DNA of 9,906 nt from a virus (Duplodnaviria; Heunggongvirae; Uroviricota; Caudoviricetes): the IMG/VR virus record IMGVR_UViG_2563366903_000019; one strand, written 5' to 3'. The notes beneath the pieces are model-generated. The model searched no databases and had not been told where the DNA came from. It worked only from the letters and a program-made list of their open reading frames with translations. A program made the position numbers and the translations under genes. Every line of letters starts with the position of its first letter. The stretch's first letter is position 1. Positions 1,659 through 9,906 of this stretch are shown here, in pieces.

Positions 1659-1868
1659 ATGCGTGAAATAAATGAAGATCGCGTAATCCGTGAGGATGAA
1701 TGTCGTAAGTTAACTGGAGTGTGCCGCACTACACGTTACGAACTGGAGAAAAAAGGGCGCTTTCCGTCACGTCTTAATCTGGGCGGTCGTTCTGTAGGGT
1801 GGCTGCTGTCCGAGGTTATGGAATGGGTTAAAAGCCGGGATCGCATTAATTCAGGTAAGGCAGTGTAA
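1659..1868 (+). CDS. alpA: AlpA-family phage transcriptional regulator (small HTH protein)
   Basis: 69-aa product MREINEDRVIREDECRKLTGVCRTTRYELEKKGRFPSRLNLGGRSVGWLLSEVMEWV matches the size and pattern of AlpA-type regulators. ATG at 1659 is in frame within the longer 1572 (GTG) ORF; start choice is uncertain. Confidence 0.7.
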   Translation: MREINEDRVIREDECRKLTGVCRTTRYELEKKGRFPSRLNLGGRSVGWLLSEVMEWVKSRDRINSGKAV

Positions 1869-1884
1869 AGGGGAGCATATGACA

Positions 1885-1915
1885 CATAAAACAAAGGCGA
1901 CCTGGGGCGGTCGCC
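1885..1915 (-). terminator. Putative rho-independent terminator for minus-strand transcript
   Basis: 7-bp GC-rich stem GGCGACC / GGTCGCC (1896-1902 / 1909-1915) with 6-nt loop; on the minus strand it is followed by TTTGTTTTAT. Lies about 90 nt downstream of the minus-strand gene stop. Confidence 0.4.
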
Positions 1916-2006
1916 AATGGGAAAACACTAAACATAAGCCCGAACATCATAGCGATTTGCTGGCTGGTGGGCAATGTGCTCAGTGTGCTGGCTTGCTGGT
2001 GGACTA

Positions 2007-2189
2007 TCAGCCTTTTGGTTCTATGCCTTCTTTGCGTAGCTTGTCACGACAGGCATTTTTAACCCATGAACTGAAATTACCAGGCCCAGCAACTTCGTTA
2101 ATTTGTTGCAACAATGTGTCTTCGAAGCGGATGTTTTTCTTTGTGCTGCCAGAGCGATCAAATTTTGGTTTCTCATTTTTTTCTTGCAT
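2007..2189 (-). CDS. Small ribbon-helix-helix-like DNA-binding protein (possibly YlcI/YnfO DUF3950-like)
   Basis: 60-aa ORF with a basic N-terminus, a beta-strand-like KKNIRFED, then two helices (TLLQQINEVAG, NFSSWVKNACRDKLRKE), which is typical RHH architecture. Codon usage looks coding. Own terminator downstream and palindromes upstream. It lies antisense inside the long + ORF 1879-2538, so it is ambiguous. Confidence 0.45.
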   Translation of the reverse strand: MQEKNEKPKFDRSGSTKKNIRFEDTLLQQINEVAGPGNFSSWVKNACRDKLRKEGIEPKG

Positions 2190-2234
2190 TGGTACGTACC
2201 ACCGTTATAAACTGAAACCCAATGGTACGTACCA
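2190..2234. promoter_or_regulatory. Twin palindromic operator-like sites TGGTACGTACCA
   Basis: Identical 12-bp perfect palindromes at 2190-2201 and 2223-2234 (centres 33 bp apart), immediately upstream of the minus-strand RHH gene start and about 100 bp upstream of the + strand ATG at 2335. Confidence 0.4.
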
Positions 2235-2334
2235 TATTGAAGATACGCAACCATTAAATACAGCGAAGCCCCGCAGTGGTGGAACACTCGCAGGGCTTCT
2301 AACCACCAACGATAGAAAGCGTATCGAGGTAGCT

Positions 2335-2538
2335 ATGAGAAATCATACCACACACCCGCAAGGGCGGGACTCGCACAACCTGAATAAATACATCTGGCGT
2401 TTTATCGCCCTGAGCACGGCACAACCGCGCGTGATTACCATTGAGGCCACCAGCGAACAGGAAGCACGCCTGCAATCCCCGGCTGGCTGCGTGATGGTAT
2501 TCGCCGCCCGTATTCGTCAGGGGGTGTTCCATGCCTGA
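2335..2538 (+). CDS. Small hypothetical protein (possibly host cell division inhibitor Icd-like)
   Basis: ATG at 2335 preceded by GAGGT (2326-2330). 67-aa product MRNHTTHPQGRDSHNLNKYIWRFIALS... with E. coli-like codon usage. Stop overlaps the start of the next gene (ATGCCTGA). It is the 3' part of the 219-aa ORF 1879-2538, sharing its stop. Confidence 0.45.
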   Translation: MRNHTTHPQGRDSHNLNKYIWRFIALSTAQPRVITIEATSEQEARLQSPAGCVMVFAARIRQGVFHA

Positions 2539-2851
2539 TATGTCAAATTACCAGTACCTGATTAATCCGCATTTTAACTGTGAGCATGATATTGCTAAAA
2601 AAGTTTATTCCGCTGCGGATGGGGCTACTGACAATATATCAATGGCTGTTGCCTCAATTGGTAACCTGATGTGGTATGCGTCAGAAAATGAGGAATATGA
2701 CGAAAAGGCCATGCGCATTGATATGGGTAATATCGGTTTGTTACTGGCAATGCTTGGGCAGTTTGATATTTCGTTACGGTGCACCATTGAAAATGCCAAA
2801 GATGCATTAAATGCTATAAAGAAAGCGAATACTGATTTAAATCGGGGATAA
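2531..2851 (+). CDS. Hypothetical protein (106 aa), low-GC accessory gene
   Basis: ORF with GGGGG 9 nt upstream; start overlaps upstream stop; GC visibly lower than neighbouring genes; no motif I can recognise. Confidence 0.6.
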   Translation: MPDMSNYQYLINPHFNCEHDIAKKVYSAADGATDNISMAVASIGNLMWYASENEEYDEKAMRIDMGNIGLLLAMLGQFDISLRCTIENAKDALNAIKKANTDLNRG

Positions 2852-2857
2852 ATAATC

Positions 2858-3157
2858 ATGAGAACATATTTATCTGGCTTGACTGCCAGCGGTTATGCAC
2901 ACCCCCAAATTATCCCCGGCGCTATTTATCTGGATAAGAACGGTAACAGAGTAACGGTAAAAGAACTGATGTTTGACCGAGTGTATTTTATCCGTGATGG
3001 CTATTCATTTCTTAGTTCGCTGAACGTGGAGATCTTTATTAGCAGATTCAGGCGGGAAATCCCGCTTTCCAGAAATAACCATGTGTCATGTATGGATGTT
3101 GATAAAAAACTACAGGAACTAAAAAACATGATTGCCGCGTGGAGAGAGCAGAAATGA
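2858..3157 (+). CDS. Hypothetical protein (99 aa), low-GC accessory gene
   Basis: Starts 6 nt after the upstream stop; its stop overlaps the primase ATG (ATGA at 3154-3157); low GC; no recognisable motif. Confidence 0.6.
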   Translation: MRTYLSGLTASGYAHPQIIPGAIYLDKNGNRVTVKELMFDRVYFIRDGYSFLSSLNVEIFISRFRREIPLSRNNHVSCMDVDKKLQELKNMIAAWREQK

Positions 3158-5277
3158 AAAAAGCGCCAAATTTAAAACACCAGCCACGTGACAAAATGAC
3201 GGAAGTCATCATTTTTGCGGGTAGTGATGCGTGGGCACATGCGAAGCAGTGGCAGGAACAGGACGGGCGACTGGCTGGCGACAGCGTGCCTCCTGTCTGG
3301 CTTGGAGAGCAACAACTTGCCGAACTGGATAAGCTGCAAATTGTGCCGGAAGGCCGAAAATCAGTACGCATATTCAGGGCCGGACATCTTGAGCCAGTAA
3401 TGATCAAGGCGATTGGTCAGAAGCTGGCGGCGGCAGGCGTACAGGATGCAAATTTTTACCCTGATGGAATGCACGGTCAGGAGGTGGAGAACTGGCGCGA
3501 ATATCTAGCCCGTGAGCGGCAGAATCTTTCTGATGGTCTGGTTATTGAGTTTCCGGTAAAGAAAAAAGATACCGGAAGCCATAGCGATGACGAATTAAAG
3601 CCACGCGTTGAAAGTCGCGCCGATGGTGTTTTCTGGGTAACGCCCAAAGTGGATAAGCAGTCAGGCGAAATTATCCGGCCTGAGACGTGGTTATGTTCTC
3701 CGCTTGAACTACTGGGAACGGGGACGATCGGTAAAGAGCATTACCGCGTGATGCGCTGGAAAAAAACCGCAAACCATGAAGTCATCACAATGGCGATCCC
3801 GTGTGGTGGTATCGGCGACCGTGACGGCTGGCGGTTACTTAAAGATCACGGGCTGAACGTGACAACCAACGGCAAATACAGGGCAATCCTGGCGGACTGG
3901 ATGCAGTTAAGCGGAAGCCATGAGGAATGGCAGTTAAGCACAACAACGGGCTGGCATTTTGGCGCGTACATCATGCCGGACGGTTCGATCATTGGTGAAT
4001 CTGAAAAACCGATCCTGTTTACCGGAAAAAGCGCCGCGATTAACGGTTATTCCGTGGCGGGCACGGCGGATGGCTGGCGCGACAGCGTGGCGCGTCTGGC
4101 TGGCGGTAATGCCTCAATGATGCTGGGTGTGGCAACGTCACTGGCAGCGCCTTTAATTGGCCTTGTGGGTGCTGACGGCTTCGGGGTGCATCTTTTCGAA
4201 CAGTCATCGGCAGGTAAGACCACCACGCAGAACATCGCATCAAGTTTATGGGGAGAGCCGGACGCGCAGCGGCTGACCTGGTACGGCACGGCGTTAGGTA
4301 TTGCCAATGAGGCCGAGGCCCATAATGACGGGCTTTTACCACTGGATGAGATAGGCCAGGCCGGAAATGCGCGGGAAGTGTCAACGTCTGCTTATACGCT
4401 GTTTAACGGTTCAGGGAAATTGCAGGGGGCGAAGGATGGCGGCAACAGGGAGATCAAACACTGGCGAACGGTGGCAATCAGCACCGGAGAAATGGACGTT
4501 GAGACATTCCTCAAAAGTGAGGGGATAAAAGTTAAGGCGGGGCAGCTTGTCCGACTGCTTAACGTTCCGATGGAAAAAGCCACGAAATTTCACGAATACA
4601 GCAACGGTAAGGAACATGCTGACGCGTTAAAGGATGCCTGGACAGCAAATCACGGGGCGGCGGGTCGTGAGTGGGTTAAATGGCTGGCAGGCCACCAGCA
4701 GGAGGCAAAGGATACGGTAAGGGAATGCCGCGAACGGTGGCGCAACCTGATACCGGAGAGCTACGGCGAGCAGGTCCACCGCGTGGGTGAACGTTTCGCC
4801 ATACTGGAGGCCGCGCTTGTGCTTTCCGGTCATGTAACTGGCTGGGTCGTGCAGGAATGCCGCGACGCGATACAGCATAACTTTAATGCCTGGGTGAAGG
4901 AGTTCGGCACGGGTAACAGGGAATTTAAACAGATGGTTGAACAGGCTGAGGCGTTTTTGTCGTCGTTTGGGTTTAGCCGCTACCTTCCGTACCCCAATAC
5001 AGATGAGCGTGATTTACCGATTAAAGAGCTTGCCGGATACAGAAAAGGGAGCATTCGCAACGAAGATGACGAGATGCGCTATTACACGTTCCCGCACGTG
5101 TTTGAGAGTGAGATAGCGAAGGGATTTAATCCGGCGCATTTTGCGCGTGCCCTGGATGCTGCCGGAATGCTGGAGAAGGGAAGCGATCGCCGATACAAAA
5201 AAAAGGCGCTGGGCAAGATTGGGGGTAAGCAGCATGTTTTTTACGTGCTGATGTTCCAGCCTGATGATGAAGATTAA
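3154..5277 (+). CDS. Primase/helicase-like replication initiator (P-loop NTPase; DUF927/P4-alpha-like Pri-Rep class)
   Basis: About 707-aa ORF from ATG 3154 (SD GGAGAGAG at 3141-3148); ORF track gives a GTG at 3139. Walker A-like EQSSAGKTT; position immediately upstream of the iteron array matches satellite replication proteins. Confidence 0.8.
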   Translation: MKKAPNLKHQPRDKMTEVIIFAGSDAWAHAKQWQEQDGRLAGDSVPPVWLGEQQLAELDKLQIVPEGRKSVRIFRAGHLEPVMIKAIGQKLAAAGVQDANFYPDGMHGQEVENWREYLARERQNLSDGLVIEFPVKKKDTGSHSDDELKPRVESRADGVFWVTPKVDKQSGEIIRPETWLCSPLELLGTGTIGKEHYRVMRWKKTANHEVITMAIPCGGIGDRDGWRLLKDHGLNVTTNGKYRAILADWMQLSGSHEEWQLSTTTGWHFGAYIMPDGSIIGESEKPILFTGKSAAINGYSVAGTADGWRDSVARLAGGNASMMLGVATSLAAPLIGLVGADGFGVHLFEQSSAGKTTTQNIASSLWGEPDAQRLTWYGTALGIANEAEAHNDGLLPLDEIGQAGNAREVSTSAYTLFNGSGKLQGAKDGGNREIKHWRTVAISTGEMDVETFLKSEGIKVKAGQLVRLLNVPMEKATKFHEYSNGKEHADALKDAWTANHGAAGREWVKWLAGHQQEAKDTVRECRERWRNLIPESYGEQVHRVGERFAILEAALVLSGHVTGWVVQECRDAIQHNFNAWVKEFGTGNREFKQMVEQAEAFLSSFGFSRYLPYPNTDERDLPIKELAGYRKGSIRNEDDEMRYYTFPHVFESEIAKGFNPAHFARALDAAGMLEKGSDRRYKKKALGKIGGKQHVFYVLMFQPDDED

Positions 5278-5299: not shown

Positions 5300-5615
5300 T
5301 GCGGGTTATGCGGGTTATCCTGTGTATAAGTGTATTAAGTGCATGAATATAAAGGAAACCAATAACCCGCACGTAACCCGCAAAAGGGCATTTATAACCC
5401 GCAAAAGCACGATTATAACCCGCAGGCGAATAACTGAAGTAACACCGGACAGTCATGCGTAACCCGCAGAAAAAACCCCGTTTGCGGGTTATTTTGAGCG
5501 TTTTGCGGGTTACGTGGTGAGCAAATAATAAACAGGGCGTTTTGCAAAATACTGATATAAAAGGATAAAAAATGGTTAGCACGCTAAGATAACCCAATAA
5601 CCCGCATAACCCGCA
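5300..5615. repeat. Iteron array / putative origin of replication
   Basis: About 11 copies of RTAACCCGCA in both orientations (5300-5309, 5310-5318, 5362-5371, 5373-5382, 5394-5403, 5415-5424, 5459-5468, 5483-5492, 5504-5513, 5597-5606, 5607-5615) plus an AT-rich stretch at 5520-5590, directly downstream of the replication gene. Confidence 0.75.
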
Positions 5616-5647
5616 CATGTTTCTATATATATAAATTGAGGTGGCAA

Positions 5648-5899
5648 ATGACCAGAACACGCAGAGACAGAACAGAGCCAAAATATAAAGCGTTAGACAT
5701 GACTGAGCACACCTTAAAGGTGGCAATCAGAACGATAGACCGCCACACGCGGGAAGGATACGCGAAGGAACATCCCGACCTGATAAGCGCATTCATGACC
5801 ACGGCGGCGGCAAACTTTGCCACGCTGACAGAACGGGAGATTGCCGAAGCGGAACAGGTAACAACCATCAACGTTAAAACCGGAGAGGTGGAATCATGA
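5648..5899 (+). CDS. Hypothetical protein (83 aa)
   Basis: ATG at 5648 with GAGGTGG just upstream; stop overlaps the ssb start (ATGA at 5896-5899), indicating translational coupling. Confidence 0.55.
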   Translation: MTRTRRDRTEPKYKALDMTEHTLKVAIRTIDRHTREGYAKEHPDLISAFMTTAAANFATLTEREIAEAEQVTTINVKTGEVES

Positions 5900-6306
5900 C
5901 AGCACAGATAGCGGCTTACGGTCGGCTGGTGGACGACCCGCAGGTAAAACAGACCAGCAAGGGCACACCGATGACGCTGGCGCGTATGGCGGTATCACTG
6001 CCATGCAGTCAGGCACAGGACGGACAGGCGACGTTATGGCTATCGGTCATCGCATTTGGTAAGCAGGCCGACTTCCTGGCTAAACATCAAAAAGGCGACG
6101 TTGCCAGCGTATCCGGCACGATGCAGGTCAGCCAGTGGACCGGACAGAACGGGGAGACGCGTCAGGGTTATCAGGTTATTGCAGACAGCGTAATCAGTGC
6201 CCGTGCGGCACGTCCTGGCGGGAACAGACGCAAAACCACAGGCGCACAGGGTAATCAGCCACCAGCGGGAGGCGATGACCCTTACGGTGATGATATTCCG
6301 TTCTGA
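5896..6306 (+). CDS. ssb: Single-stranded DNA-binding protein (SSB family, short linker)
   Basis: 136-aa product with OB-fold-like core (IAAYGRLVDDPQV..., LWLSVIAFGKQADFLAKHQKGDVASVSGTMQVSQWTGQNGETRQGY) and the hallmark acidic C-terminal tip DPYGDDIPF. SD GAGAGGTGG upstream. Confidence 0.85.
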   Translation: MTAQIAAYGRLVDDPQVKQTSKGTPMTLARMAVSLPCSQAQDGQATLWLSVIAFGKQADFLAKHQKGDVASVSGTMQVSQWTGQNGETRQGYQVIADSVISARAARPGGNRRKTTGAQGNQPPAGGDDPYGDDIPF

Positions 6307-6316
6307 GGGGGTGACG

Positions 6317-6589
6317 ATGGTACATGACCGCATAGCGGAAGAACTCGAAGCGAAAGGATTTTACCGGAGGGCGGCGGCGCGATGGGGTGAAGTCATGCAG
6401 CTGGTGGAGACAGACAAGGAACGGCATCAGGTTACGATGCGACGGCTGGAATGTTCCAGGAAGGCACAGAGGCCACCGGAGCCGCCGGATAACTTCGGAG
6501 ACCTGAGAAAGGCAGTCGATCGCACTTATGCTGAAATGGGTATAGATGGTGTAAGCGATGAAATATGGCGTAATTACCCAGGCAGCTAA
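6317..6589 (+). CDS. PerC-family transcriptional regulator-like protein
   Basis: 90-aa product MVHDRIAEELEAKGFYRRAAARWGEVM... matching the PerC/Pch-like N-terminal motif as I recall it. SD GGGGG 5 nt upstream of ATG 6317; the ORF track's 6197 extension overlaps ssb. Confidence 0.65.
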   Translation: MVHDRIAEELEAKGFYRRAAARWGEVMQLVETDKERHQVTMRRLECSRKAQRPPEPPDNFGDLRKAVDRTYAEMGIDGVSDEIWRNYPGS

Positions 6590-6594
6590 TCAAC

Positions 6595-6618
6595 AGCCGG
6601 AGTAATCCGGCTTTTTTG
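6595..6618 (+). terminator. Rho-independent terminator
   Basis: Stem AGCCGG / CCGGCT with loop AGTAAT, followed by TTTTTT. Confidence 0.6.
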
Positions 6619-6623
6619 TACCC

Positions 6624-6667
6624 AAAAAAAGCCCGATAAGTACAGGAGGCATCTTATCGGGCTTTTG
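6624..6667. terminator. Putative bidirectional terminator hairpin
   Basis: 10-bp stem GCCCGATAAG / CTTATCGGGC (6631-6640 / 6653-6662), with an A7 run before and a T run after. Confidence 0.5.
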
Positions 6668-6710
6668 CATATGAGGTTTTTTTTGGCGCACTGACACACA
6701 TGATCGGGAT

Positions 6711-6760
6711 CATCATTTCATAATTTGCAACACAACTCAACATCATTGCATAAAATGCAA
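6711..6760. repeat. Two 20-bp direct repeats upstream of and overlapping the capsid-operon promoter
   Basis: CATCATTTCATAATTTGCAA (6711-6730) and CATCATTGCATAAAATGCAA (6741-6760), 17/20 identical, 30-bp register. Confidence 0.5.
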
Positions 6761-6773
6761 TCATGATTATAAT
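6746..6773 (+). promoter_or_regulatory. Sigma70-like promoter of the capsid operon
   Basis: -35 TTGCAT (6746-6751), 16-bp spacer, perfect -10 TATAAT (6768-6773); predicted start near 6780, about 50 nt before ATG 6830. Confidence 0.5.
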
Positions 6774-6778
6774 CAGAT

Positions 6779-6794
6779 CTGGATGAACATCCAG
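6779..6794. promoter_or_regulatory. Operator-like palindrome at predicted transcription start
   Basis: CTGGATGAACATCCAG, a 16-bp near-perfect palindrome (half-sites match 7/8) immediately downstream of the -10 element. Confidence 0.4.
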
Positions 6795-6829
6795 TTATGA
6801 TTTTTTAAGTCAAAGAGGAATTTCTTACT

Positions 6830-7036
6830 ATGGCTGAAGAGAAAAAAGGCGGTGTTTCGGTGTACATAAGCCCCGACATCGTGAAGGCGCTCAAGGAACG
6901 CCACCAGCAGAACGTAAAAGCAGGCATTGCGGCAGGACTTGATCCGCTGGCGATGGTTGAGCCGTCAACAGGCTGGCAGGTACGCGCCTATTTACGCGCG
7001 GCGCTGGGTATGAATCAGGTTCACGGGGGTGAATAA
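6830..7036 (+). CDS. Hypothetical protein (68 aa), first gene of capsid operon
   Basis: ORF with AGAGG about 11 nt upstream; its stop overlaps the capsid gene start (TAATG); no recognisable motif and no cysteines. Confidence 0.55.
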   Translation: MAEEKKGGVSVYISPDIVKALKERHQQNVKAGIAAGLDPLAMVEPSTGWQVRAYLRAALGMNQVHGGE

Positions 7037-8091
7037 TGACAGTAAAAGCAATAGCACTTAACACTAACCAGCTTTTTGCGTACCTGAATCGCGAGGATAT
7101 TGCGGAATTTAAATTCAGTCCGCTGTTTACCGCGCTGTTTTTCCCGAACGTGGCGACATTCAACACACAGGACATCATGTTAGATAACCTGGATATTGAA
7201 GAAGTCACTATGTCGGCGTTTTGTTCGCCTATGGTGGGTAGCCAGGTTCAGCGCGATAAAGGGTACGAAACAAGCATTATTCGCCCTGGCTACATGAAGC
7301 CAAAACACGAAATCGATCCATTAAAAACAATAATGCGCATGGCTGGAGAAGATCCAGCACAGCTTAACGACCCTACCTACCGCCGTATGCGCCTGATTAC
7401 TGGCAACATGCGCCGCCAGATAAACGCCATTAAAGCGCGCGTGGAATGGCTGGCGGTGAATGCGATAACGACCGGAAAAAACATCATTGAGGGCGAAGGC
7501 ATAGAACGCTATGAAATCGACTGGAAGATCCCAAGTAAAAATATCGCCAGACAGGGACATGGCAAAAAGTGGTCAGAGGCAGATAAGGAAACACACGATC
7601 CAATCTATGACATCGAGCTTTATGCTGATCAGGCTGGTTGCCCCGCAAACGTCATGATTATGGGCGCTGAGGTATGGCGAACGTTACGCAGCTTTAAAAA
7701 ATTCCGTGAGCTGTACGATCTTTCCCGTGGTTCAGAGTCCGCCGCAGAGCTGGCCTGTAAAAACCTGGGCGAAGTGGTGAGCTTTAAAGGCTATCTGGGC
7801 GATATTGCCCTTATCGTCTATTCCGGCAAATACGCCGACAGCGACGGCACAGAAAAATATTTCCTTGAGCCTGATTTGCTTGTCCTGGGCAACACCAACA
7901 ATAAAGGGCTGGTGGCCTATGGTGCGATTATGGATCAGGACGCAGTAAGAACGGGGGCAACGCAAAACATGTACTACCCGAAAAACTGGATTGAGGACGG
8001 AGATCCGGCGATTGAGTACGTGCAGACGCACAGCGCACCGCAGCCGGTTCCGGCAGATATTCGCAAATTTGTTACTGTCAAAATTGCTTAA
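7036..8091 (+). CDS. Major capsid protein, lambda gpE family (HK97 fold)
   Basis: 351-aa product aligns by eye with lambda gpE as recalled: FKFSPLFTALFF vs FKFDPLFLRLFF, PGYMKPKHEIDP vs PGYVKPKHEVNP, EDPAQLNDPTYRRMRLITGNMR vs EDPQNLADPAYRRRRIIMQNMR, YPKNWIEDGDPAIEYVQTHSAP vs YPKNWVTTGDPAREFTMIQSAP. Confidence 0.9.
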   Translation: MTVKAIALNTNQLFAYLNREDIAEFKFSPLFTALFFPNVATFNTQDIMLDNLDIEEVTMSAFCSPMVGSQVQRDKGYETSIIRPGYMKPKHEIDPLKTIMRMAGEDPAQLNDPTYRRMRLITGNMRRQINAIKARVEWLAVNAITTGKNIIEGEGIERYEIDWKIPSKNIARQGHGKKWSEADKETHDPIYDIELYADQAGCPANVMIMGAEVWRTLRSFKKFRELYDLSRGSESAAELACKNLGEVVSFKGYLGDIALIVYSGKYADSDGTEKYFLEPDLLVLGNTNNKGLVAYGAIMDQDAVRTGATQNMYYPKNWIEDGDPAIEYVQTHSAPQPVPADIRKFVTVKIA

Positions 8092-8102
8092 CGGGGGATT
8101 CT

Positions 8103-8438
8103 ATGGACACTCCATACATTGAGTTATTTGCAGGCAGTCAGCAGGTCGCCACGACGCTGGTACATTTTGCCGCTGATGCTGGCGTTATCCAGGAATTTAC
8201 CCCGCTGATGCTGGCGGACAATGGCGAGTTTAAGCCGTGGGATGGTCAGGAATCTGGCAAGGCTGTTTATCTGACTTCGTACCCCGTGGACACGTCAAAG
8301 CAGAAATCAGCACAGTGTTACAAGACGGGGATATTTAATATCGCCGCCGTAAACTGGCCTGAGAGCGCCGACACTGACGCGAAAAAATGCGCCGCCTTTG
8401 CGGGTTCTGGCGTATCCGTTCAGCCGCTGGCGCGATAA
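8103..8438 (+). CDS. Head decoration protein, lambda gpD-like
   Basis: 111-aa product with TPLMLADNGEFKPWDG and CYKTGIFNIAAVNWPESADTDAKKCAAFAGSGVSV, matching lambda gpD (TPLMLDTSSRKLVAWDG ... [36 protein letters not shown]). SD ACGGGGGA upstream. Confidence 0.85.
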   Translation: MDTPYIELFAGSQQVATTLVHFAADAGVIQEFTPLMLADNGEFKPWDGQESGKAVYLTSYPVDTSKQKSAQCYKTGIFNIAAVNWPESADTDAKKCAAFAGSGVSVQPLAR

Positions 8439-8450
8439 GCAGGGGAAACG

Positions 8451-8864
8451 ATGGCAACGAATGAAAGCATCATGGCGCTACCGCTGGCGAGTAAATTTAA
8501 AGCAGAAGCGCGGGCAATGGCTGACAGAGGTTTATCAACCTACGAGGCCGTATATCAACTCAACAAACTGGAAGAACAGGACAAGCCGCGCGCTGATGCG
8601 ATTATGGCGCTTCATGAACATAACGACTATCAGCCGCTGTTACGTGCAATGGCAAACGTGCCATGTATTAGCGTCGATAATGCTCGTGAAATCCTGAACA
8701 TGACCATAGAGCAGGAGCGCCCAAAGGTTGCACCAGAGCTTACCGCAGCCTTTGAAAACTTTATGGACATGCACAGCCCGCAAGCCGTATCAGCTGGCAT
8801 GGCGTACGATGGCAGAAACCAGGGCGATGACGGCGACATCGATCGCATGCTGAAAACCATCTGA
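8451..8864 (+). CDS. Hypothetical protein (137 aa), last gene of capsid operon
   Basis: ORF with AGGGGA 4 nt upstream, followed directly by a terminator; acidic C-terminus; occupies the position lambda gives to FI but shows no similarity to it that I can see. Confidence 0.6.
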   Translation: MATNESIMALPLASKFKAEARAMADRGLSTYEAVYQLNKLEEQDKPRADAIMALHEHNDYQPLLRAMANVPCISVDNAREILNMTIEQERPKVAPELTAAFENFMDMHSPQAVSAGMAYDGRNQGDDGDIDRMLKTI

Positions 8865-8868
8865 GACA

Positions 8869-8894
8869 AGGCCGGAGAAATCCGGCTTTTTTTT
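8869..8894 (+). terminator. Rho-independent terminator
   Basis: Stem GCCGGA / TCCGGC with loop GAAA, followed by T8; nearly identical in sequence to the terminator at 6595-6618. Confidence 0.65.
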
Positions 8895-8960
8895 ACGGGT
8901 CCTTTCCGGCATATGGACCCGTTACGGGGCGGCGACCTCGCGGTTTTTCGCTATTTATGA
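8895..8960. other. cos site: lambda-like cosQ-cosN core (cosN GGGCGGCGACCT at 8927-8938)
   Basis: ACGGGTCCTTTCCGG ... GTTACG GGGCGGCGACCT CGCGGTTTTTCGCTATTTATGA; the last 33 nt match the left end of lambda (GGGCGGCGACCTCGCGGGTTTTCGCTATTTATGA) at 32/33 from memory, and the upstream part resembles the lambda right end. Confidence 0.75.
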
Positions 8961-9031
8961 GCCTTTTCAGGGGGGGGTGGTGGTTTTGTTGTTTGCTCTA
9001 TCTTTATGAATGAAAAGGGAAAGATGCAAAC

Positions 9032-9069
9032 AATACACCAACCTGAAGCAGTAATTAAGTTGGTGTATT
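9032..9069. promoter_or_regulatory. 11-bp perfect inverted repeat in cosB-equivalent region (candidate TerS binding site or 5' hairpin)
   Basis: AATACACCAAC (9032-9042) and GTTGGTGTATT (9059-9069) separated by 16 nt, abutting the ATG at 9071. Confidence 0.4.
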
Positions 9070-9070
9070 A

Positions 9071-9613
9071 ATGAAATCGCACCTGATGAACAAAAAAAAC
9101 ATGGCGAAAAGCTGCCGTGTAAGTGCGACAGCGTTCGACAAGTGGGGAGTGACTCCCGTTGAACGTAAAGGCCGTGAGGCGTTTTACGATGTTGCCAGCG
9201 TGATAGACAATAGGGTTAACAATGCAATTAGCCAGCTTACAAACGACAAAGGCGATATTGATGATGATGAACTCTTACGAGTCAGGATCAGATTACTGAC
9301 AGCACAGGCGGAGGCGCAGGAACTTAAAAACGAGCGCGATCGCGGTGACGTGATCGATACTGAGTTTTGCCTGTACGCGCTTTCAAAGCTGGCGAGTCAG
9401 ATTTCATCAATCATGGACAGCCTCCCGCTTACTATGCAAAGGAGCTTCCCACAGATTACCCCCGCCATGCTGGATAGGCTTAAAAGGGAAGTGGTTAAAG
9501 CCTGTAATGCCAGTGCCAGAGTTGCCGACAACCTCCCACAGATACTGGCTGATTACTTGAAAGAAACAACCGGAAACGTACCGGAAAAGTTGCAGCCGAA
9601 TAAAGATAAGTAA
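9071..9613 (+). CDS. Terminase small subunit, lambda Nu1-like
   Basis: C-terminal two-thirds align with lambda Nu1 as recalled: LLTAQAEAQELKNERDRGDVIDTEFCLYALSKLASQISSIMDSLPLTMQRSFP vs LTRAQADAQELKNARDSAEVVETAFCTFVLSRIAGEIASILDGLPLSVQRRFP. The N-terminal HTH region is divergent. Alternative start at ATG 9086 (MNKKN..., matching Nu1 MEVNKK...). Confidence 0.85.
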   Translation: MKSHLMNKKNMAKSCRVSATAFDKWGVTPVERKGREAFYDVASVIDNRVNNAISQLTNDKGDIDDDELLRVRIRLLTAQAEAQELKNERDRGDVIDTEFCLYALSKLASQISSIMDSLPLTMQRSFPQITPAMLDRLKREVVKACNASARVADNLPQILADYLKETTGNVPEKLQPNKDK

Positions 9614-9624
9614 CGTAGTACGCT

Positions 9625-9906
9625 ATGACTGAATCCGAAATACTGCGATTAATCCGCCGCGTCTCTGGAATCAGCCAGCAGGCTGACGAACAGACCACGC
9701 AGCCGGACAGCGTGACAGCCGAAAACTATGCGCGTGTTGTTGCTGAGGTGATGCGCCGTGATGGTATAGAACTTAATGGCGTGGATATGCGCAACATACG
9801 AACCAGAGTTCTTGAGTTGCTGGCCTACCGTCGCCGCGTGGAGATGTATCGGGAGAAGGAGAAAATAACGTACCACTGGAAGAAGCCGGAGCGGTTGCGG
9901 CGGTAA
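9625..9906 (+). CDS. Hypothetical protein (93 aa) downstream of terS
   Basis: Complete ORF ending at the window edge, 11 nt after the terS stop; weak SD; Arg-rich C-terminus; not similar to the lambda gpA N-terminus as I recall it. Confidence 0.5.
   Translation: MTESEILRLIRRVSGISQQADEQTTQPDSVTAENYARVVAEVMRRDGIELNGVDMRNIRTRVLELLAYRRRVEMYREKEKITYHWKKPERLRR

What the first reader, a model, noticed from the sequence alone, without database searches (positions are those of the whole stretch)
1879..2334. Antisense RHH-like gene with twin perfect palindromes, embedded in a long sense ORF
The sense strand offers a 219-aa ORF (1879-2538) with an excellent SD (AGGGGAG), but its middle translates to low-complexity sequence. 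The antisense strand there encodes a convincing 60-aa ribbon-helix-helix-like protein with its own downstream terminator hairpin (1896-1915 plus a T-tract). Two identical 12-bp palindromes TGGTACGTACCA sit 33 bp apart directly upstream of it. This may be a divergent repressor/operator switch between alpA and the replication operon, analogous in role to a satellite master repressor, or a case of true overlapping genes.
Basis: partly seen in the sequence, partly recalled or inferred. Interest (0 to 1): 0.6.

Follow-up and report, generated by a model that had tools for sequence, protein, structure and literature searches.

The report
Satellite immunity switch with overlapping genes
This is the early control region of an E. 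coli phage satellite: a small repressor gene, its two DNA operators and a probable small antisense RNA all lie inside, and opposite to, a longer gene whose frame is kept open, which offers a testable answer to how these islands stay silent.

Summary

- **Repressor gene.** The 60-aa minus-strand gene (2007-2189) is a real YlcI/YnfO (DUF3950) protein with a ribbon-helix-helix fold. RefSeq already annotates it, but no function is known.
- **Operators.** The two TGGTACGTACCA boxes sit at fixed positions in about 49 of 54 homologous loci. Their centres change with the protein's beta-strand region. Other E. coli PICIs carry different small proteins, each with its own repeat pair over a rightward promoter.
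- **Sense ORF.** The 219-aa ORF is not an artefact. It corresponds to P4 eta, with the Icd-like 67-aa gene nested like kil. Its frame stays open across the opposite-strand gene(s) in 17 of 18 cross-genus loci and in five differently built E. coli elements.
A conserved ~80-nt cis-antisense RNA (2340 to 2255, minus strand) covers the Icd-like ribosome site and resembles IncQ RepX.

Nothing here is shown experimentally. I judge it a new variant of known satellite and plasmid control systems.

The parts
1662..1868 (+). alpA (context): the activator/excisionase-type gene. Its stop codon directly precedes the long ORF's ribosome site.
   Evidence: Pfam Phage_AlpA, 60.3 bits. RefSeq annotates the same gene in E. 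coli TOE17.
1869..2538 (+). Shine-Dalgarno AGGGGAG (1869-1875) plus the eta-like long ORF (ATG 1879, 219 aa). The ORF runs antisense through the repressor gene, both operators and the antisense-RNA target, and ends in the Icd-like domain.
   Evidence: ORF. Frame open in 17 of 18 cross-genus loci with 0 stops against 3-10 in each other frame. Also open in five E. coli elements with other modules. Null model P = 0.004 for the window. P4 eta is a 214-aa ORF that overlaps the end of vis and carries the same C-terminal domain. The 219-aa form is deposited in GenBank as 'Icd-like'.
2335..2538 (+). Nested in-frame Icd-like gene (67 aa; kil-like) with its own GAGG ribosome site at 2326-2329. Its stop codon overlaps the next gene's ATG (2531).
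   Evidence: NF033153, 69.1 bits. PGAP calls the 67-aa form in NDM2 and APEC.
2007..2189 (-). Gene for a 60-aa ribbon-helix-helix protein (YlcI/YnfO, DUF3950): the proposed repressor.
1896..1915 (-). Terminator-like hairpin with a T-tract, 92 nt downstream of the repressor gene.
   Evidence: The stem is kept and the loop varies in L002 and L003.
2190..2201 (.). Operator box 1 (TGGTACGTACCA). It abuts the repressor gene's ATG and lies in the spacer of the candidate rightward promoter.
2223..2234 (.). Operator box 2 (TGGTACGTACCA). It overlaps the -10 of the candidate leftward promoter and lies just downstream of the rightward promoter's predicted start.
2184..2211 (+). Candidate rightward promoter P_R: -35 TTGCAT (2184-2189), 16-nt spacer containing box 1, -10 TATAAA (2206-2211).
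   Evidence: TCTTGCAT is kept in 48 of 49 loci, because Gln2 is always coded CAA. A TAnnnT hexamer follows 16-18 nt downstream, read by eye from the same listing. Other E. coli elements have clear TTGACN-17/18-TAnnnT promoters with their repeats in the same places. The consensus scan did not list it.
2222..2250 (-). Candidate leftward promoter for the repressor gene: -35 TTGCGT (2250-2245), 17-nt spacer, -10 TACCAT (2227-2222, inside box 2).
   Evidence: Read from the sequence. TTGCNT-17-TACCAT recurs in about ten of the listed loci (L005, L007, L011, L012, L014-L016, L020, L021, L025). Weak match to consensus and not listed.
2255..2340 (-). Predicted ~80-nt cis-antisense RNA (RepX-like). It has a 5' hairpin (complement of 2310-2326), linker GUUGGUGGUUA, and a terminator-like hairpin (complement of 2265-2299) with tail GCUGUAUUU. 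It covers the ribosome site and start codon of the Icd-like gene.
   Evidence: Consensus fold -21.96 on the minus strand against -12.47 on the plus strand. 98.4% of cells paired, 11 pairs with compensatory changes, 0 of 500 shuffles as good. 127 G.U cells against 0 A.C cells. A covariance model built without IncQ sequences hits the RepX position in an RSF1010-type plasmid, 35.9 bits, E about 1e-5.
2342..2350 (-). Candidate extended -10 (TGGTATGAT) of the antisense RNA, inside codons 3-6 of the Icd-like gene. Predicted start near 2336.
   Evidence: G, T, A and T of G-n-TAnnnT are invariant in 41 of 41 aligned loci, although these encode different first genes (alignment A3).

Best explanation
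The window is a Gram-negative phage-inducible chromosomal island / P4-like satellite. Positions 1869-2538 are its early control ('immunity') region, and it has three layers.

**1. Repressor and operators.** A 60-aa ribbon-helix-helix protein made from the minus strand binds as dimers to two 12-bp boxes 33 bp apart.
- Box 1 lies in the spacer of a rightward promoter (TTGCAT-16-TATAAA) that would drive the Icd-like gene and the replication operon.
- Box 2 lies on the -10 of the protein's own leftward promoter.
- Binding should therefore repress the replication operon and autoregulate the repressor.

**2. Antisense RNA.** A constitutive ~80-nt RNA with two hairpins, similar to IncQ RepX, starts at about the Icd-like start codon and runs leftward. 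It pairs with the ribosome site and AUG of the Icd-like gene and blocks its translation. By analogy with P1 c4/icd/ant and with P4, this would expose the transcript to premature termination before the primase gene.

**3. Override ORF.** The 219-aa plus-strand ORF is the counterpart of P4 eta.
- It starts at a strong ribosome site immediately after alpA and is in frame with the nested Icd-like (kil-like) gene.
- It is kept free of stop codons across the repressor gene, the operators and the antisense-RNA target.
- When a helper phage switches on alpA, transcripts from the alpA promoter are translated continuously through this ORF.
- That would by-pass the antisense block on the internal start, protect the RNA from Rho, and interfere with convergent repressor and antisense-RNA transcription, committing the island to replication.

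**Shown versus inferred.**
- Shown by computation: the protein's family and fold, conservation and covariation of the operators, RNA structure conservation and its strand, the similarity to RepX, and conservation of the open frame and its phase.
- Inferred: DNA binding, promoter use, existence and action of the RNA, and the override by translation.
For: **Protein**
- DUF3950 at 33.1 bits against a cut-off of 25. YlcI_YnfO_N at 31.1 bits against 30.
- AlphaFold model: mean pLDDT 75.6, helices at residues 24-34 and 39-54 after an extended N-terminus.
- Family member P0111 scores 27.8 bits on RHH_1 and 22.3 bits on DUF3950.

**Operators**
- Boxes at -44 and -11/-10 in about 49 of 54 loci.
- Residues before the IRF strand track the box centre:
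  - TKKN with ACGT
  - TMKH with AGTT/AACT
  - TMKN with AGGT/ACCT
  - TRRT with TCGC/TCGA
- CFT073, NDM2 and three other E. coli elements each have a different small minus-strand protein with its own repeat pair. In four of the five the pair lies on a TTGACN-17/18-TAnnnT promoter.
- AlpA is 96% identical in NDM2, where the operators are unrelated.
- TCTTGCAT is kept in 48 of 49 loci through a fixed CAA codon.

**RNA**
- Structure conservation and strand.
- My covariance model hits the RepX site of an IncQ1 plasmid at E about 1e-5.
- The 11-nt linker TAACCACCAAC is identical to that of RSF1010.
- RepX is a 75-nt RNA antisense to the repA ribosome site and start codon (PMC8136791).

**ORF**
- Frame openness.
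- All 8 minus-strand genes in six E. coli elements lie in the same phase relative to the Icd frame (coordinates).
- P4 eta is a 214-aa ORF overlapping the end of vis, with NF033153 at its C-terminus, 73.9 bits.
- AlpA over-expression drives EcCICFT073 replication (PMC6092414).
Against: - There are no expression or binding data of any kind.
- The promoter scan found no site here at its threshold. Both divergent promoters have weak -35 elements.
- The repressor gene has no recognisable Shine-Dalgarno sequence, because box 1 abuts the ATG.
- The window protein does not hit Pfam RHH_1 directly. Foldseek and sequence searches of the PDB were not significant.
- Rfam RF00043 scores only 16.5 bits against a gathering score of 55.
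- The RNA's U-tail is weak in the window (GCUGUAUUU).
- In the window alone, the frame opposite the 60-aa gene would stay open 74% of the time by chance. The case for a selected overlap therefore rests on the intergenic part and on comparison between loci.
- One satellite-type locus (L004) has lost the phase and the open frame.
- The lineages compared are not independent, so the covariation counts overstate the number of events.
- KKN-type strands occur with both ACGT and GCGC box centres, so there is no simple recognition code.
Confidence: 0.7

Rival explanations
1. Only the minus-strand repressor gene is real. On this view the 219-aa sense ORF is a 'shadow' ORF, open because its third codon positions coincide with those of the antisense gene. 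The true plus-strand gene would then be just the 67-aa Icd-like gene.
For: - Only the last 67 aa match a family.
- PGAP calls the 67-aa form in some genomes.
- The part opposite the 60-aa gene stays open in 74% of synonymous resamplings.
- The same shadow frame is open in about half of the SymE-type loci, where it is not in phase with any downstream gene.
Against: - The 136-154-nt intergenic part has 0 stops in the Icd frame against 3-10 in each other frame, in 17 of 18 loci.
- The distance between the two ATGs is always 2 mod 3 (137 to 155 nt) in satellites but varies in SymE-type loci.
- ORFs of 219-428 aa persist over five unrelated inserts.
- Null model P is 0.004 or lower.
- A ribosome site plus ATG follows the alpA stop in most lineages examined.
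- P4 eta has the same layout.
Confidence: 0.15
2. The twin palindromes are bound not by the 60-aa protein but by AlpA, or by a helper-phage or host factor. On this view the small protein has another role.
For: - AlpA is the known activator of these islands (PMC6092414).
- No binding data exist for the 60-aa protein.
- YlcI/YnfO homologs in lambda-like phages have no such boxes upstream.
Against: - The box centre changes with the small protein's strand region.
- The small gene and its repeats are swapped as one unit, while AlpA stays 96% identical.
- The same protein-and-boxes module occurs next to SymE-like genes, where tblastn with the window's AlpA and integrase finds nothing in the flanks.
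Confidence: 0.08
3. The conserved hairpins at 2265-2326 act in the sense mRNA, as a leader that hides the ribosome site or attenuates transcription. On this view no antisense RNA is made.
For: - The small hairpin at 2310-2326 overlaps the first base of the GAGG ribosome site (2326-2329) and so could mask it.
- Rfam's RF00043 model matched the plus strand.
- Both strands of a hairpin can fold.
Against: - There are 127 G.U cells and no A.C cells when read on the minus strand.
- Consensus energy is -21.96 on the minus strand against -12.47 on the plus strand. For the window itself the values are -37.3 against -27.7 kcal/mol.
- T-rich tails follow the large hairpin on the minus strand in many lineages.
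- An invariant -10 on the minus strand sits at the right distance.
- The homologous position in IncQ plasmids encodes RepX, an antisense RNA demonstrated experimentally.
Confidence: 0.12

Closest known systems
Satellite phage P4 immunity region (vis - eta/kil nested genes, promoter PLE, CI RNA with seqA/seqC)
   Same: - The position is the same: directly after the alpA/vis gene and before the primase operon.
- A long ORF (214 aa in P4, 219 aa here) starts at the end of vis/alpA and ends in an Icd-like domain (NF033153).
- A shorter in-frame product is nested at its 3' end.
- An internal promoter and an RNA-based block lie inside the long ORF.
- In P4, translation of eta from the upstream promoter prevents termination.
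   Different: - P4 uses a trans-acting processed CI RNA that pairs with seqA/seqC. Here Rfam C4/isrK models and my own model find nothing of that kind.
- This element instead has a protein repressor gene on the opposite strand, with twin operators, plus a cis-antisense RNA.
- The N-terminal parts of the two long ORFs are unrelated.
IncQ plasmids RSF1010/R1162: repressor F plus the RepX countertranscript controlling repA-repC
   Same: - A two-hairpin RNA of about 75-85 nt lies antisense to the ribosome site and start codon of the first gene of a replication operon.
- The 11-nt linker TAACCACCAAC is identical.
- An upstream ORF is translated through the large hairpin.
- A small repressor acts on the operon promoter.
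   Different: - The Rfam family threshold is not reached (16.5 bits against 55).
- F lies on the same strand as repA, and I did not test it for relatedness to the 60-aa protein.
- The downstream gene is Icd-like rather than a helicase.
- The element is an integrated satellite, not a plasmid.
pMV158-type dual copy control (RHH repressor CopG plus antisense RNA II acting on repB); from my own knowledge
   Same: It combines a very small ribbon-helix-helix repressor with an antisense RNA that blocks translation of a replication gene. The best structural match to the 60-aa protein is a plasmid copy-control protein (ORF56 of pRN1).
   Different: - copG is co-transcribed with repB rather than divergent from it.
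- There is no overlapping sense ORF.
- No sequence relationship was tested.
Phage P1 immI operon (c4 RNA - icd - ant); from my own knowledge (Biere et al. 1992)
   Same: An antisense RNA blocks translation of a small Icd gene, and the loss of translation terminates transcription of the downstream genes.
   Different: - c4 acts in trans on sites upstream of icd.
- No Rfam C4 match was found here.
- P1 has no RHH repressor in this operon.
SaPI/PICI master repressor Stl (Rpr) of Gram-positive islands
   Same: A repressor gene is transcribed divergently from the excision/replication operon, with operators in the divergent region. Repressor types are highly diverse between related islands.
   Different: - Stl proteins are much larger helix-turn-helix proteins, inactivated by helper-phage proteins.
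- In these islands the helper is known to act through alpA transcription.
- There is no evidence that the RHH protein senses the helper.
- No second operator site exists elsewhere in the window.

Membership tests
YlcI/YnfO family (NCBIfam NF041551) / Pfam DUF3950 (PF13132) | Profile score above the curated cut-off. | tested here: met
   NF041551 at 31.1 bits (cut-off 30). PF13132 at 33.1 bits (cut-off 25). RefSeq names the identical protein YlcI/YnfO family.
Ribbon-helix-helix superfamily (CopG/Arc/MetJ) | Strand-helix-helix topology of about 45 residues. | tested here: met
Ribbon-helix-helix superfamily (CopG/Arc/MetJ) | Sequence-profile match to an RHH family (for example Pfam RHH_1). | tested here: inconclusive
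   The window protein has no direct hit. PDB profile hits to CdbA, NikR and CopG have E of 0.2-0.6. Homologs P0111 and P0080 pass the RHH_1 cut-off.
Ribbon-helix-helix superfamily (CopG/Arc/MetJ) | Dimerises and binds short repeated or palindromic operators through the paired strands. | not testable with these tools
   Only indirect support: twin 12-bp boxes that covary with the strand region.
R1162-like plasmid antisense RNA (Rfam RF00043; RepX) | Covariance-model score at or above Rfam's gathering score. | tested here: not met
   16.5 bits in the window and 17.9 bits in L033, against a gathering score of 55.
R1162-like plasmid antisense RNA (Rfam RF00043; RepX) | Two hairpins separated by a short linker, lying opposite the ribosome site and start codon of the first gene of a replication operon. 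| tested here: met
   Structure and strand. Position over GAGG 2326-2329 and ATG 2335. My model hits the RepX site of pSRC15 at 35.9 bits, E about 1e-5.
R1162-like plasmid antisense RNA (Rfam RF00043; RepX) | The RNA is actually transcribed and lowers expression of the target. | not testable with these tools
   Only a conserved minus-strand -10 (TAnnnT invariant in 41 of 41 loci).
P4 eta/kil nested genes | A long ORF beginning at or overlapping the end of the alpA/vis gene. | tested here: met
   Window: alpA stop at 1866-1868, ribosome site 1869-1875, ATG 1879. P4: ATG 8812 lies inside vis, 8764-9030.
P4 eta/kil nested genes | C-terminal Icd-like domain with an internal in-frame start that has its own ribosome site. 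| tested here: met
   NF033153 at residues 171-214 of the 219-aa ORF and at 85-132 of the 137-aa form of the P4 ORF. Internal starts: GAGG-ATG at 2335 here, GGAGG-ATG in P4.
P4 eta/kil nested genes | CI RNA with seqA/seqC immunity sites inside the ORF. | tested here: not met
   No Rfam C4 or isrK match in the window at E up to 1. A different system occupies the place.
P4 eta/kil nested genes | Translation of the long ORF suppresses premature termination. | not testable with these tools
   Inferred from the conserved open frame and phase and from the P4 precedent.
Host cell division inhibitor Icd-like (NF033153) | Profile score above the cut-off. | tested here: met
   69.1 bits for the 67-aa form and 65.9 bits for the 219-aa form (cut-off 25). 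Inhibition of cell division was not tested.
SymE/SymR type I toxin-antitoxin | SymR RNA (Rfam) opposite a SymE-family gene. | tested here: not met
   The window has no SymE gene. SymE-type relatives of the module (PF08845) gave no SymR match either.
PICI master repressor (Stl/Rpr type) | Repressor divergent from the operon it silences, relieved by a helper-phage protein. | tested here: inconclusive
   The divergent layout and operators are met. Interaction with the helper cannot be tested. The published inducing route runs through alpA.

The most novel reading that the evidence does not exclude
The most novel reading is that the overlap itself is selected, and that the region works as a translational override switch.

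- A translated eta-like ORF has been kept open for hundreds of codons across an opposite-strand repressor gene (two such genes in some islands), its operators, two divergent promoters and an antisense-RNA gene.
- This holds in at least eight lineages and six unrelated 'immunity types'.
- Ribosomes loaded at the alpA-coupled start would read through the repressor's own gene and the antisense-RNA target, switching the island from silent to replicating.
- The hypervariable RHH/operator cassettes would then be the long-sought immunity (master-repressor) determinants of Gram-negative PICIs.
Probability: 0.4. Interest if true: 0.8.

Novelty: new variant of a known kind. Interest (0 to 1): 0.68.

Why it matters
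[quoted passage not shown] The region studied here supplies a concrete candidate.
- A small RHH repressor with its own operators over a rightward promoter is present in the prototype EcCICFT073 and in every E. coli island I opened.
- It comes in at least six interchangeable specificities.
- That diversity is the pattern expected of an immunity or incompatibility determinant.

**Links to known systems.**
- A plasmid copy-control RNA (RepX type) is tied to phage satellites.
- The P4 eta/kil logic appears to be general in these islands, even where the RNA immunity of P4 has been replaced by a protein repressor encoded on the other strand.

**Annotation.** PGAP currently calls the plus-strand gene at 67, 135, 157 or 219 aa in different genomes. 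A deliberately maintained sense/antisense protein-coding overlap would be an instructive case for gene callers.

**Application.** PICIs are being engineered as delivery vehicles. The elements that keep them silent are therefore of practical interest.

Tried and rejected
- **Shadow-ORF assumption.** I first took the 219-aa ORF for a shadow-frame artefact. The cross-locus frame analysis overturned this.
- **Codon-position test.** A substitution test by codon position cannot separate the two genes, because their third positions coincide (worked out from coordinates). I used stop-codon counts, phase and resampling instead.
- **PDB sequence searches.** phmmer against the PDB found nothing. The profile search gave only sub-significant RHH hits.
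- **Rfam.** Scans gave no family above its gathering score. They found no SymR, C4 or isrK.
- **Finding RSF1010.**
  - blastn of the leader against plasmids did not find it.
  - The accession NC_001740 is not held.
  - I located an IncQ1 plasmid with the Rfam consensus string instead.
- **pAL5000.** This blastn hit was not pursued.
- **Pseudoknot idea.** Pairing between the large hairpin's loop (TGGTGG) and the downstream CCACCA fitted two loci by eye but not a third. I dropped it without a formal test.
- **P4.** My RNA model has no match in P4.
- **Lambda.** Lambda's YlcI/YnfO homolog has no TGGTA boxes upstream, so I found no sign of cross-talk with the helper.
- **Forti et al. 1999.** The paper on the P4 nested genes is not held in the library. 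That point rests on PMC10111431 and on my own knowledge.
Full report
**Setting**

The window is a Gram-negative phage-inducible chromosomal island / P4-like satellite. Its genes, in order:
- integrase, 1-1239
- alpA, 1662-1868
- the region in question
- an Icd-like gene, 2335-2538
- a 106-aa ORF
- a DUF4222 gene
- a DUF927 primase/helicase-type gene, 3139-5277
- SSB
- a capsid-type gene (351-aa ORF 7036-8091) and a small-terminase-like ORF; these two assignments are mine and no domain search was run on them

The nearest relative is in E. coli TOE17: 99.4% identity over 1560-2860, inserted next to yljB/cspD. Parts of this stretch match 1392 of 5426 complete E. coli genomes.

**Checking the observation**

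- The 219-aa ORF at 1879-2538, with AGGGGAG just upstream.
- The 60-aa minus-strand ORF at 2007-2189.
- A minus-strand hairpin at 1915-1896 with a T-tract.
- Two perfect TGGTACGTACCA palindromes at 2190-2201 and 2223-2234.
- No other copy occurs in the window, even with two mismatches allowed.

**The 60-aa protein**

- It passes the curated cut-offs of Pfam DUF3950 and NCBIfam YlcI_YnfO_N.
- RefSeq already annotates the identical protein as 'YlcI/YnfO family protein', and it has been seen on at least 1000 contigs.
- I found no paper that gives the family a function.
- An exhaustive profile search found 119 cluster representatives sharing the motif ST-x-K-x-IRF-x-x-x-LL-x-x-I ... FS-x-WVK-x-AC.
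- The AlphaFold model (mean pLDDT 75.6) has an extended N-terminal segment followed by two helices.
  - ORF56 of pRN1
  - ArtA
  - Arc
  - a TCP domain

  By my own knowledge the first three are ribbon-helix-helix proteins and the TCP domain is a related fold.
- A family member (P0111) passes Pfam RHH_1 and nearly passes DUF3950.
- The direct sequence and Foldseek searches were not significant.

I accept the ribbon-helix-helix assignment.

**The boxes as its operators**

I fetched 54 loci encoding relatives of the protein, from Escherichia, Pantoea, Erwinia, Serratia, Photorhabdus, Xenorhabdus, Proteus, Enterobacter and others.

About 49 of them have two GGT-N4-ACC boxes at -44 and -11/-10 from the ATG.

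The outer half-sites TGGT/ACCA are kept. The central four bases differ by clade, and they change together with the residues just before the IRF strand:

| Residues before IRF | Box centre |
|---|---|
| TKKN | ACGT |
| TMKH | AGTT / AACT |
| TMKN | AGGT / ACCT |
| TRRT | TCGC / TCGA |

These are clade-level associations and represent few independent events. KKN also occurs with GCGC centres, so there is no simple code.

Module exchange within E. coli is stronger evidence.
- CFT073 (the prototype EcCICFT073), NDM2 and three further islands each carry a different small minus-strand protein at this position.
- Each has its own pair of repeats: GTGGGCCACACCT, GTGTTTAACACCT, TGTGCGCACA, TGTACGTACGTAAC, or TGTAAGAC/GTCTTACA.
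- In four of the five the repeats sit on a clear rightward TTGACN-17/18-TAnnnT promoter, one repeat in or next to the spacer and one after the -10.
- AlpA is 96% identical in NDM2, where the operators are unrelated. AlpA is therefore not the binder.

In the window the equivalent rightward promoter would be TTGCAT (2184-2189), a 16-nt spacer, then TATAAA (2206-2211), with box 1 in the spacer. TCTTGCAT is preserved in 48 of 49 loci because the second codon is always CAA.

A leftward TTGCNT-17-TACCAT promoter, whose -10 is half of box 2, recurs in about ten of the listed loci. Both promoters are below the threshold of the consensus scan.

Between box 2 and the Icd-like ATG, all loci share this layout:
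- a large G+C-rich hairpin (window 2265-2299)
- a linker, TAACCACCAA
- a small hairpin (2310-2326)
- the ribosome site, then the ATG

Evidence on which strand is functional:

| Measure | Minus strand | Plus strand |
|---|---|---|
| Consensus fold over 41 sequences (kcal/mol) | -21.96 | -12.47 |
| Window sequence alone (kcal/mol) | -37.3 | -27.7 |
| G.U cells in the consensus structure | 127 | 0 |

- On the minus strand, 98.4% of cells are paired. Eleven of 20 pairs show compensatory changes, and no shuffle out of 500 does as well.
- Because every wobble pair falls on the minus-strand reading, the selected structure is the minus-strand RNA.
- A minus-strand -10 (TAnnnT preceded by G) is invariant in 41 of 41 sequences. 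This holds even though it lies inside the first codons of different protein genes. It predicts a start at about the Icd-like start codon.
- T-rich tails follow the large hairpin in many lineages, but only weakly in the window.

Relationship to RepX:
- Rfam gave only sub-threshold hits, but both were to RF00043, the R1162-like plasmid antisense RNA.
- A covariance model built from my alignment, without any IncQ sequence, hit an RSF1010-type plasmid exactly opposite the repA ribosome site (35.9 bits, E about 1e-5).
- The 11-nt linker TAACCACCAAC is identical.
- That plasmid RNA, RepX, is an experimentally shown 75-nt, two-hairpin antisense RNA that covers the repA ribosome site and start codon and controls copy number (PMC8136791).

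**The sense ORF is real, and it is the P4 eta counterpart**

I expected a shadow ORF. In the window alone, the stretch opposite the 60-aa gene would indeed stay open 74% of the time. The comparison between loci says otherwise.
- In 17 of 18 satellite-type loci the Icd frame is open for 400-850 nt upstream.
- The 136-154-nt intergenic part has no stop in that frame, against 3-10 in each other frame.
- The distance between the two ATGs is 137, 140, 143, 146, 149, 152 or 155 nt, always 2 mod 3. The single exception (L004, 139 nt) has a closed frame.
- In the SymE-type loci described below, the distance varies in phase and the frame is not kept.
- Five E. coli islands with quite different inserts, two of them with two minus-strand genes, have ORFs of 306-428 aa from just after alpA to the Icd stop. 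They have 0 stops inside the ORF in that frame, against 14-28 in each of the others.
- All eight minus-strand genes lie in the one permissive phase.
- The joint chance that all eight leave the frame open is about 3e-4.
- A null model combining dinucleotide shuffles with synonymous resampling gives P = 0.004 for the window, and fewer than 1 in 2000 for each of the others.
- In most of the lineages examined the ORF begins with a ribosome site plus ATG right after alpA; CFT073 and L064 have no obvious ribosome site there.

Comparison with P4:
- The ORF called eta is 214 aa, starts inside the end of vis (the alpA homolog), and ends in the same Icd-like domain (NF033153, 73.9 bits). A nested shorter product has its own GGAGG-ATG.
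- Full-length Eta is made only from the upstream late promoter.
- The truncated form is Kil.
- Eta translation prevents termination (PMC10111431).

The window therefore has the P4 eta/kil architecture. P4's CI RNA immunity has been replaced by a repressor gene on the opposite strand plus a cis-antisense RNA.

**Proposed mechanism (inferred)**

- *Silent state.* The RHH protein occupies both boxes, shutting the rightward promoter and limiting its own synthesis. The antisense RNA blocks the internal Icd-like start, so any leaky transcript is left untranslated and prone to termination before the primase gene.
- *Induction.* The helper phage raises alpA transcription, AlpA activates its own promoter, and AlpA over-expression is enough for replication of EcCICFT073 (PMC6092414). 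Transcripts from alpA carry ribosomes into the long ORF. Continuous translation through the antisense target would by-pass the RNA block, and convergent transcription would depress repressor and antisense-RNA synthesis.
- *Diversity.* The many cassette specificities suggest an immunity or incompatibility role.

**Comparison with what is known, and novelty**

The parts are known kinds:
- RHH repressors with paired operators
- RepX-type countertranscripts
- P4 eta/kil
- P1 c4/icd

All three protein products are already deposited.

What I could not find described is:
- the RHH/operator cassette as a regulator of Gram-negative PICIs
- a RepX-like RNA in satellites
- a repressor gene lying antisense inside the eta-like ORF, with the frame kept open

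In the held library, no paper contains PICI, AlpA and ribbon-helix-helix together. [quoted passage not shown]

I class it as a new variant of a known kind, of real interest to people who work on satellites, and resting so far on comparative inference only.

Noticed in passing
L020-L052 (e.g. L033 3531-4162): In Enterobacter, Buttiauxella, Kluyvera, Leclercia, Scandinavium and related genomes, the same module precedes a different gene. The module is the YlcI-like gene, twin boxes, RepX-like hairpins and the linker TCTAACC-N-CACCAAC. It sits in front of a SymE-family toxin gene (PF08845) rather than an Icd-like gene. tblastn with the window's AlpA, integrase and primase finds nothing in the flanks. 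The control cassette therefore seems portable between satellites and toxin loci.
   Followed up: partly
L058 2502-2592 (plasmid pAL5000, Mycolicibacterium fortuitum): My RNA model scores 46 bits (E about 8e-8) on the minus strand of this actinobacterial plasmid. blastn with the window leader also hit the same place. The hit lies in the same orientation as the annotated genes. This may be a distant RepX-like RNA or a G+C-rich coincidence.
   Followed up: no
L059 375-462 (IncQ1 plasmid pSRC15): In RSF1010-type plasmids the repressor gene F is translated through the large hairpin. Its stop codon TAA is the UAA of the conserved linker CUAACCACCAAC. This parallels the upstream ORF that reads through the hairpins in the satellites, though in another frame.
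   Followed up: partly
L060, L062, L063, L064, L002 (E. coli PICIs): There are at least six different small-repressor/operator specificities at the same position between near-identical alpA and Icd-like flanks. One variant (L063) pairs a 63-aa protein ending in GIEPKG, like the window's, with a SWIM zinc-finger gene on the same strand. PGAP start calls for the Icd-like gene vary in the genomes I opened: 67, 135 and 157 aa, and one entry flagged as a partial pseudogene.
   Followed up: partly
L066 228-422 (lambda-like phage ev207, right end near cos): Lambda and many lambdoid phages, which are known helpers of E. coli PICIs, encode a YlcI/YnfO homolog between bor and the right end. No TGGTA-type boxes are visible upstream of it.
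   Followed up: partly
window 5300-9906 versus L001 13000-19301: The regulatory region is 99.4% identical to that of E. coli TOE17. However, the window's late genes (a 351-aa capsid-type ORF at 7036-8091 and a 180-aa small-terminase-like ORF at 9071-9613, by my own unsearched assignment) appear to differ from TOE17's HK97-type capsid/protease/portal/HNH/terminase set. The late zone looks mosaic. The two were not aligned.
   Followed up: no
window 1959-1975 and 1991-2007; 1995-2011 and 2039-2054: A 17-nt imperfect direct repeat (GCTGGCTGGTGGGCAAT / GCTTGCTGGTGGACTAT) lies just downstream of the repressor gene's stop codon. Two weak plus-strand terminator-like hairpins lie at the 3' end of the repressor gene, one across its stop codon and one inside it. 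The number of such sites is near the shuffle expectation, so they are probably chance.
   Followed up: no
L044 (Enterobacter sp. RIT637), SymE-type locus: The SymE-like gene's start codon reads ATT instead of ATG, while the surrounding leader is intact. This may be a silenced toxin copy.
   Followed up: no
window 2531-2851: The 106-aa ORF after the Icd-like gene has no family match. It has the same length and relative position as P4 ORF106 (DUF5375), and its ATG overlaps the Icd-like stop codon (ATGCCTGA), which suggests translational coupling down the operon.
   Followed up: no
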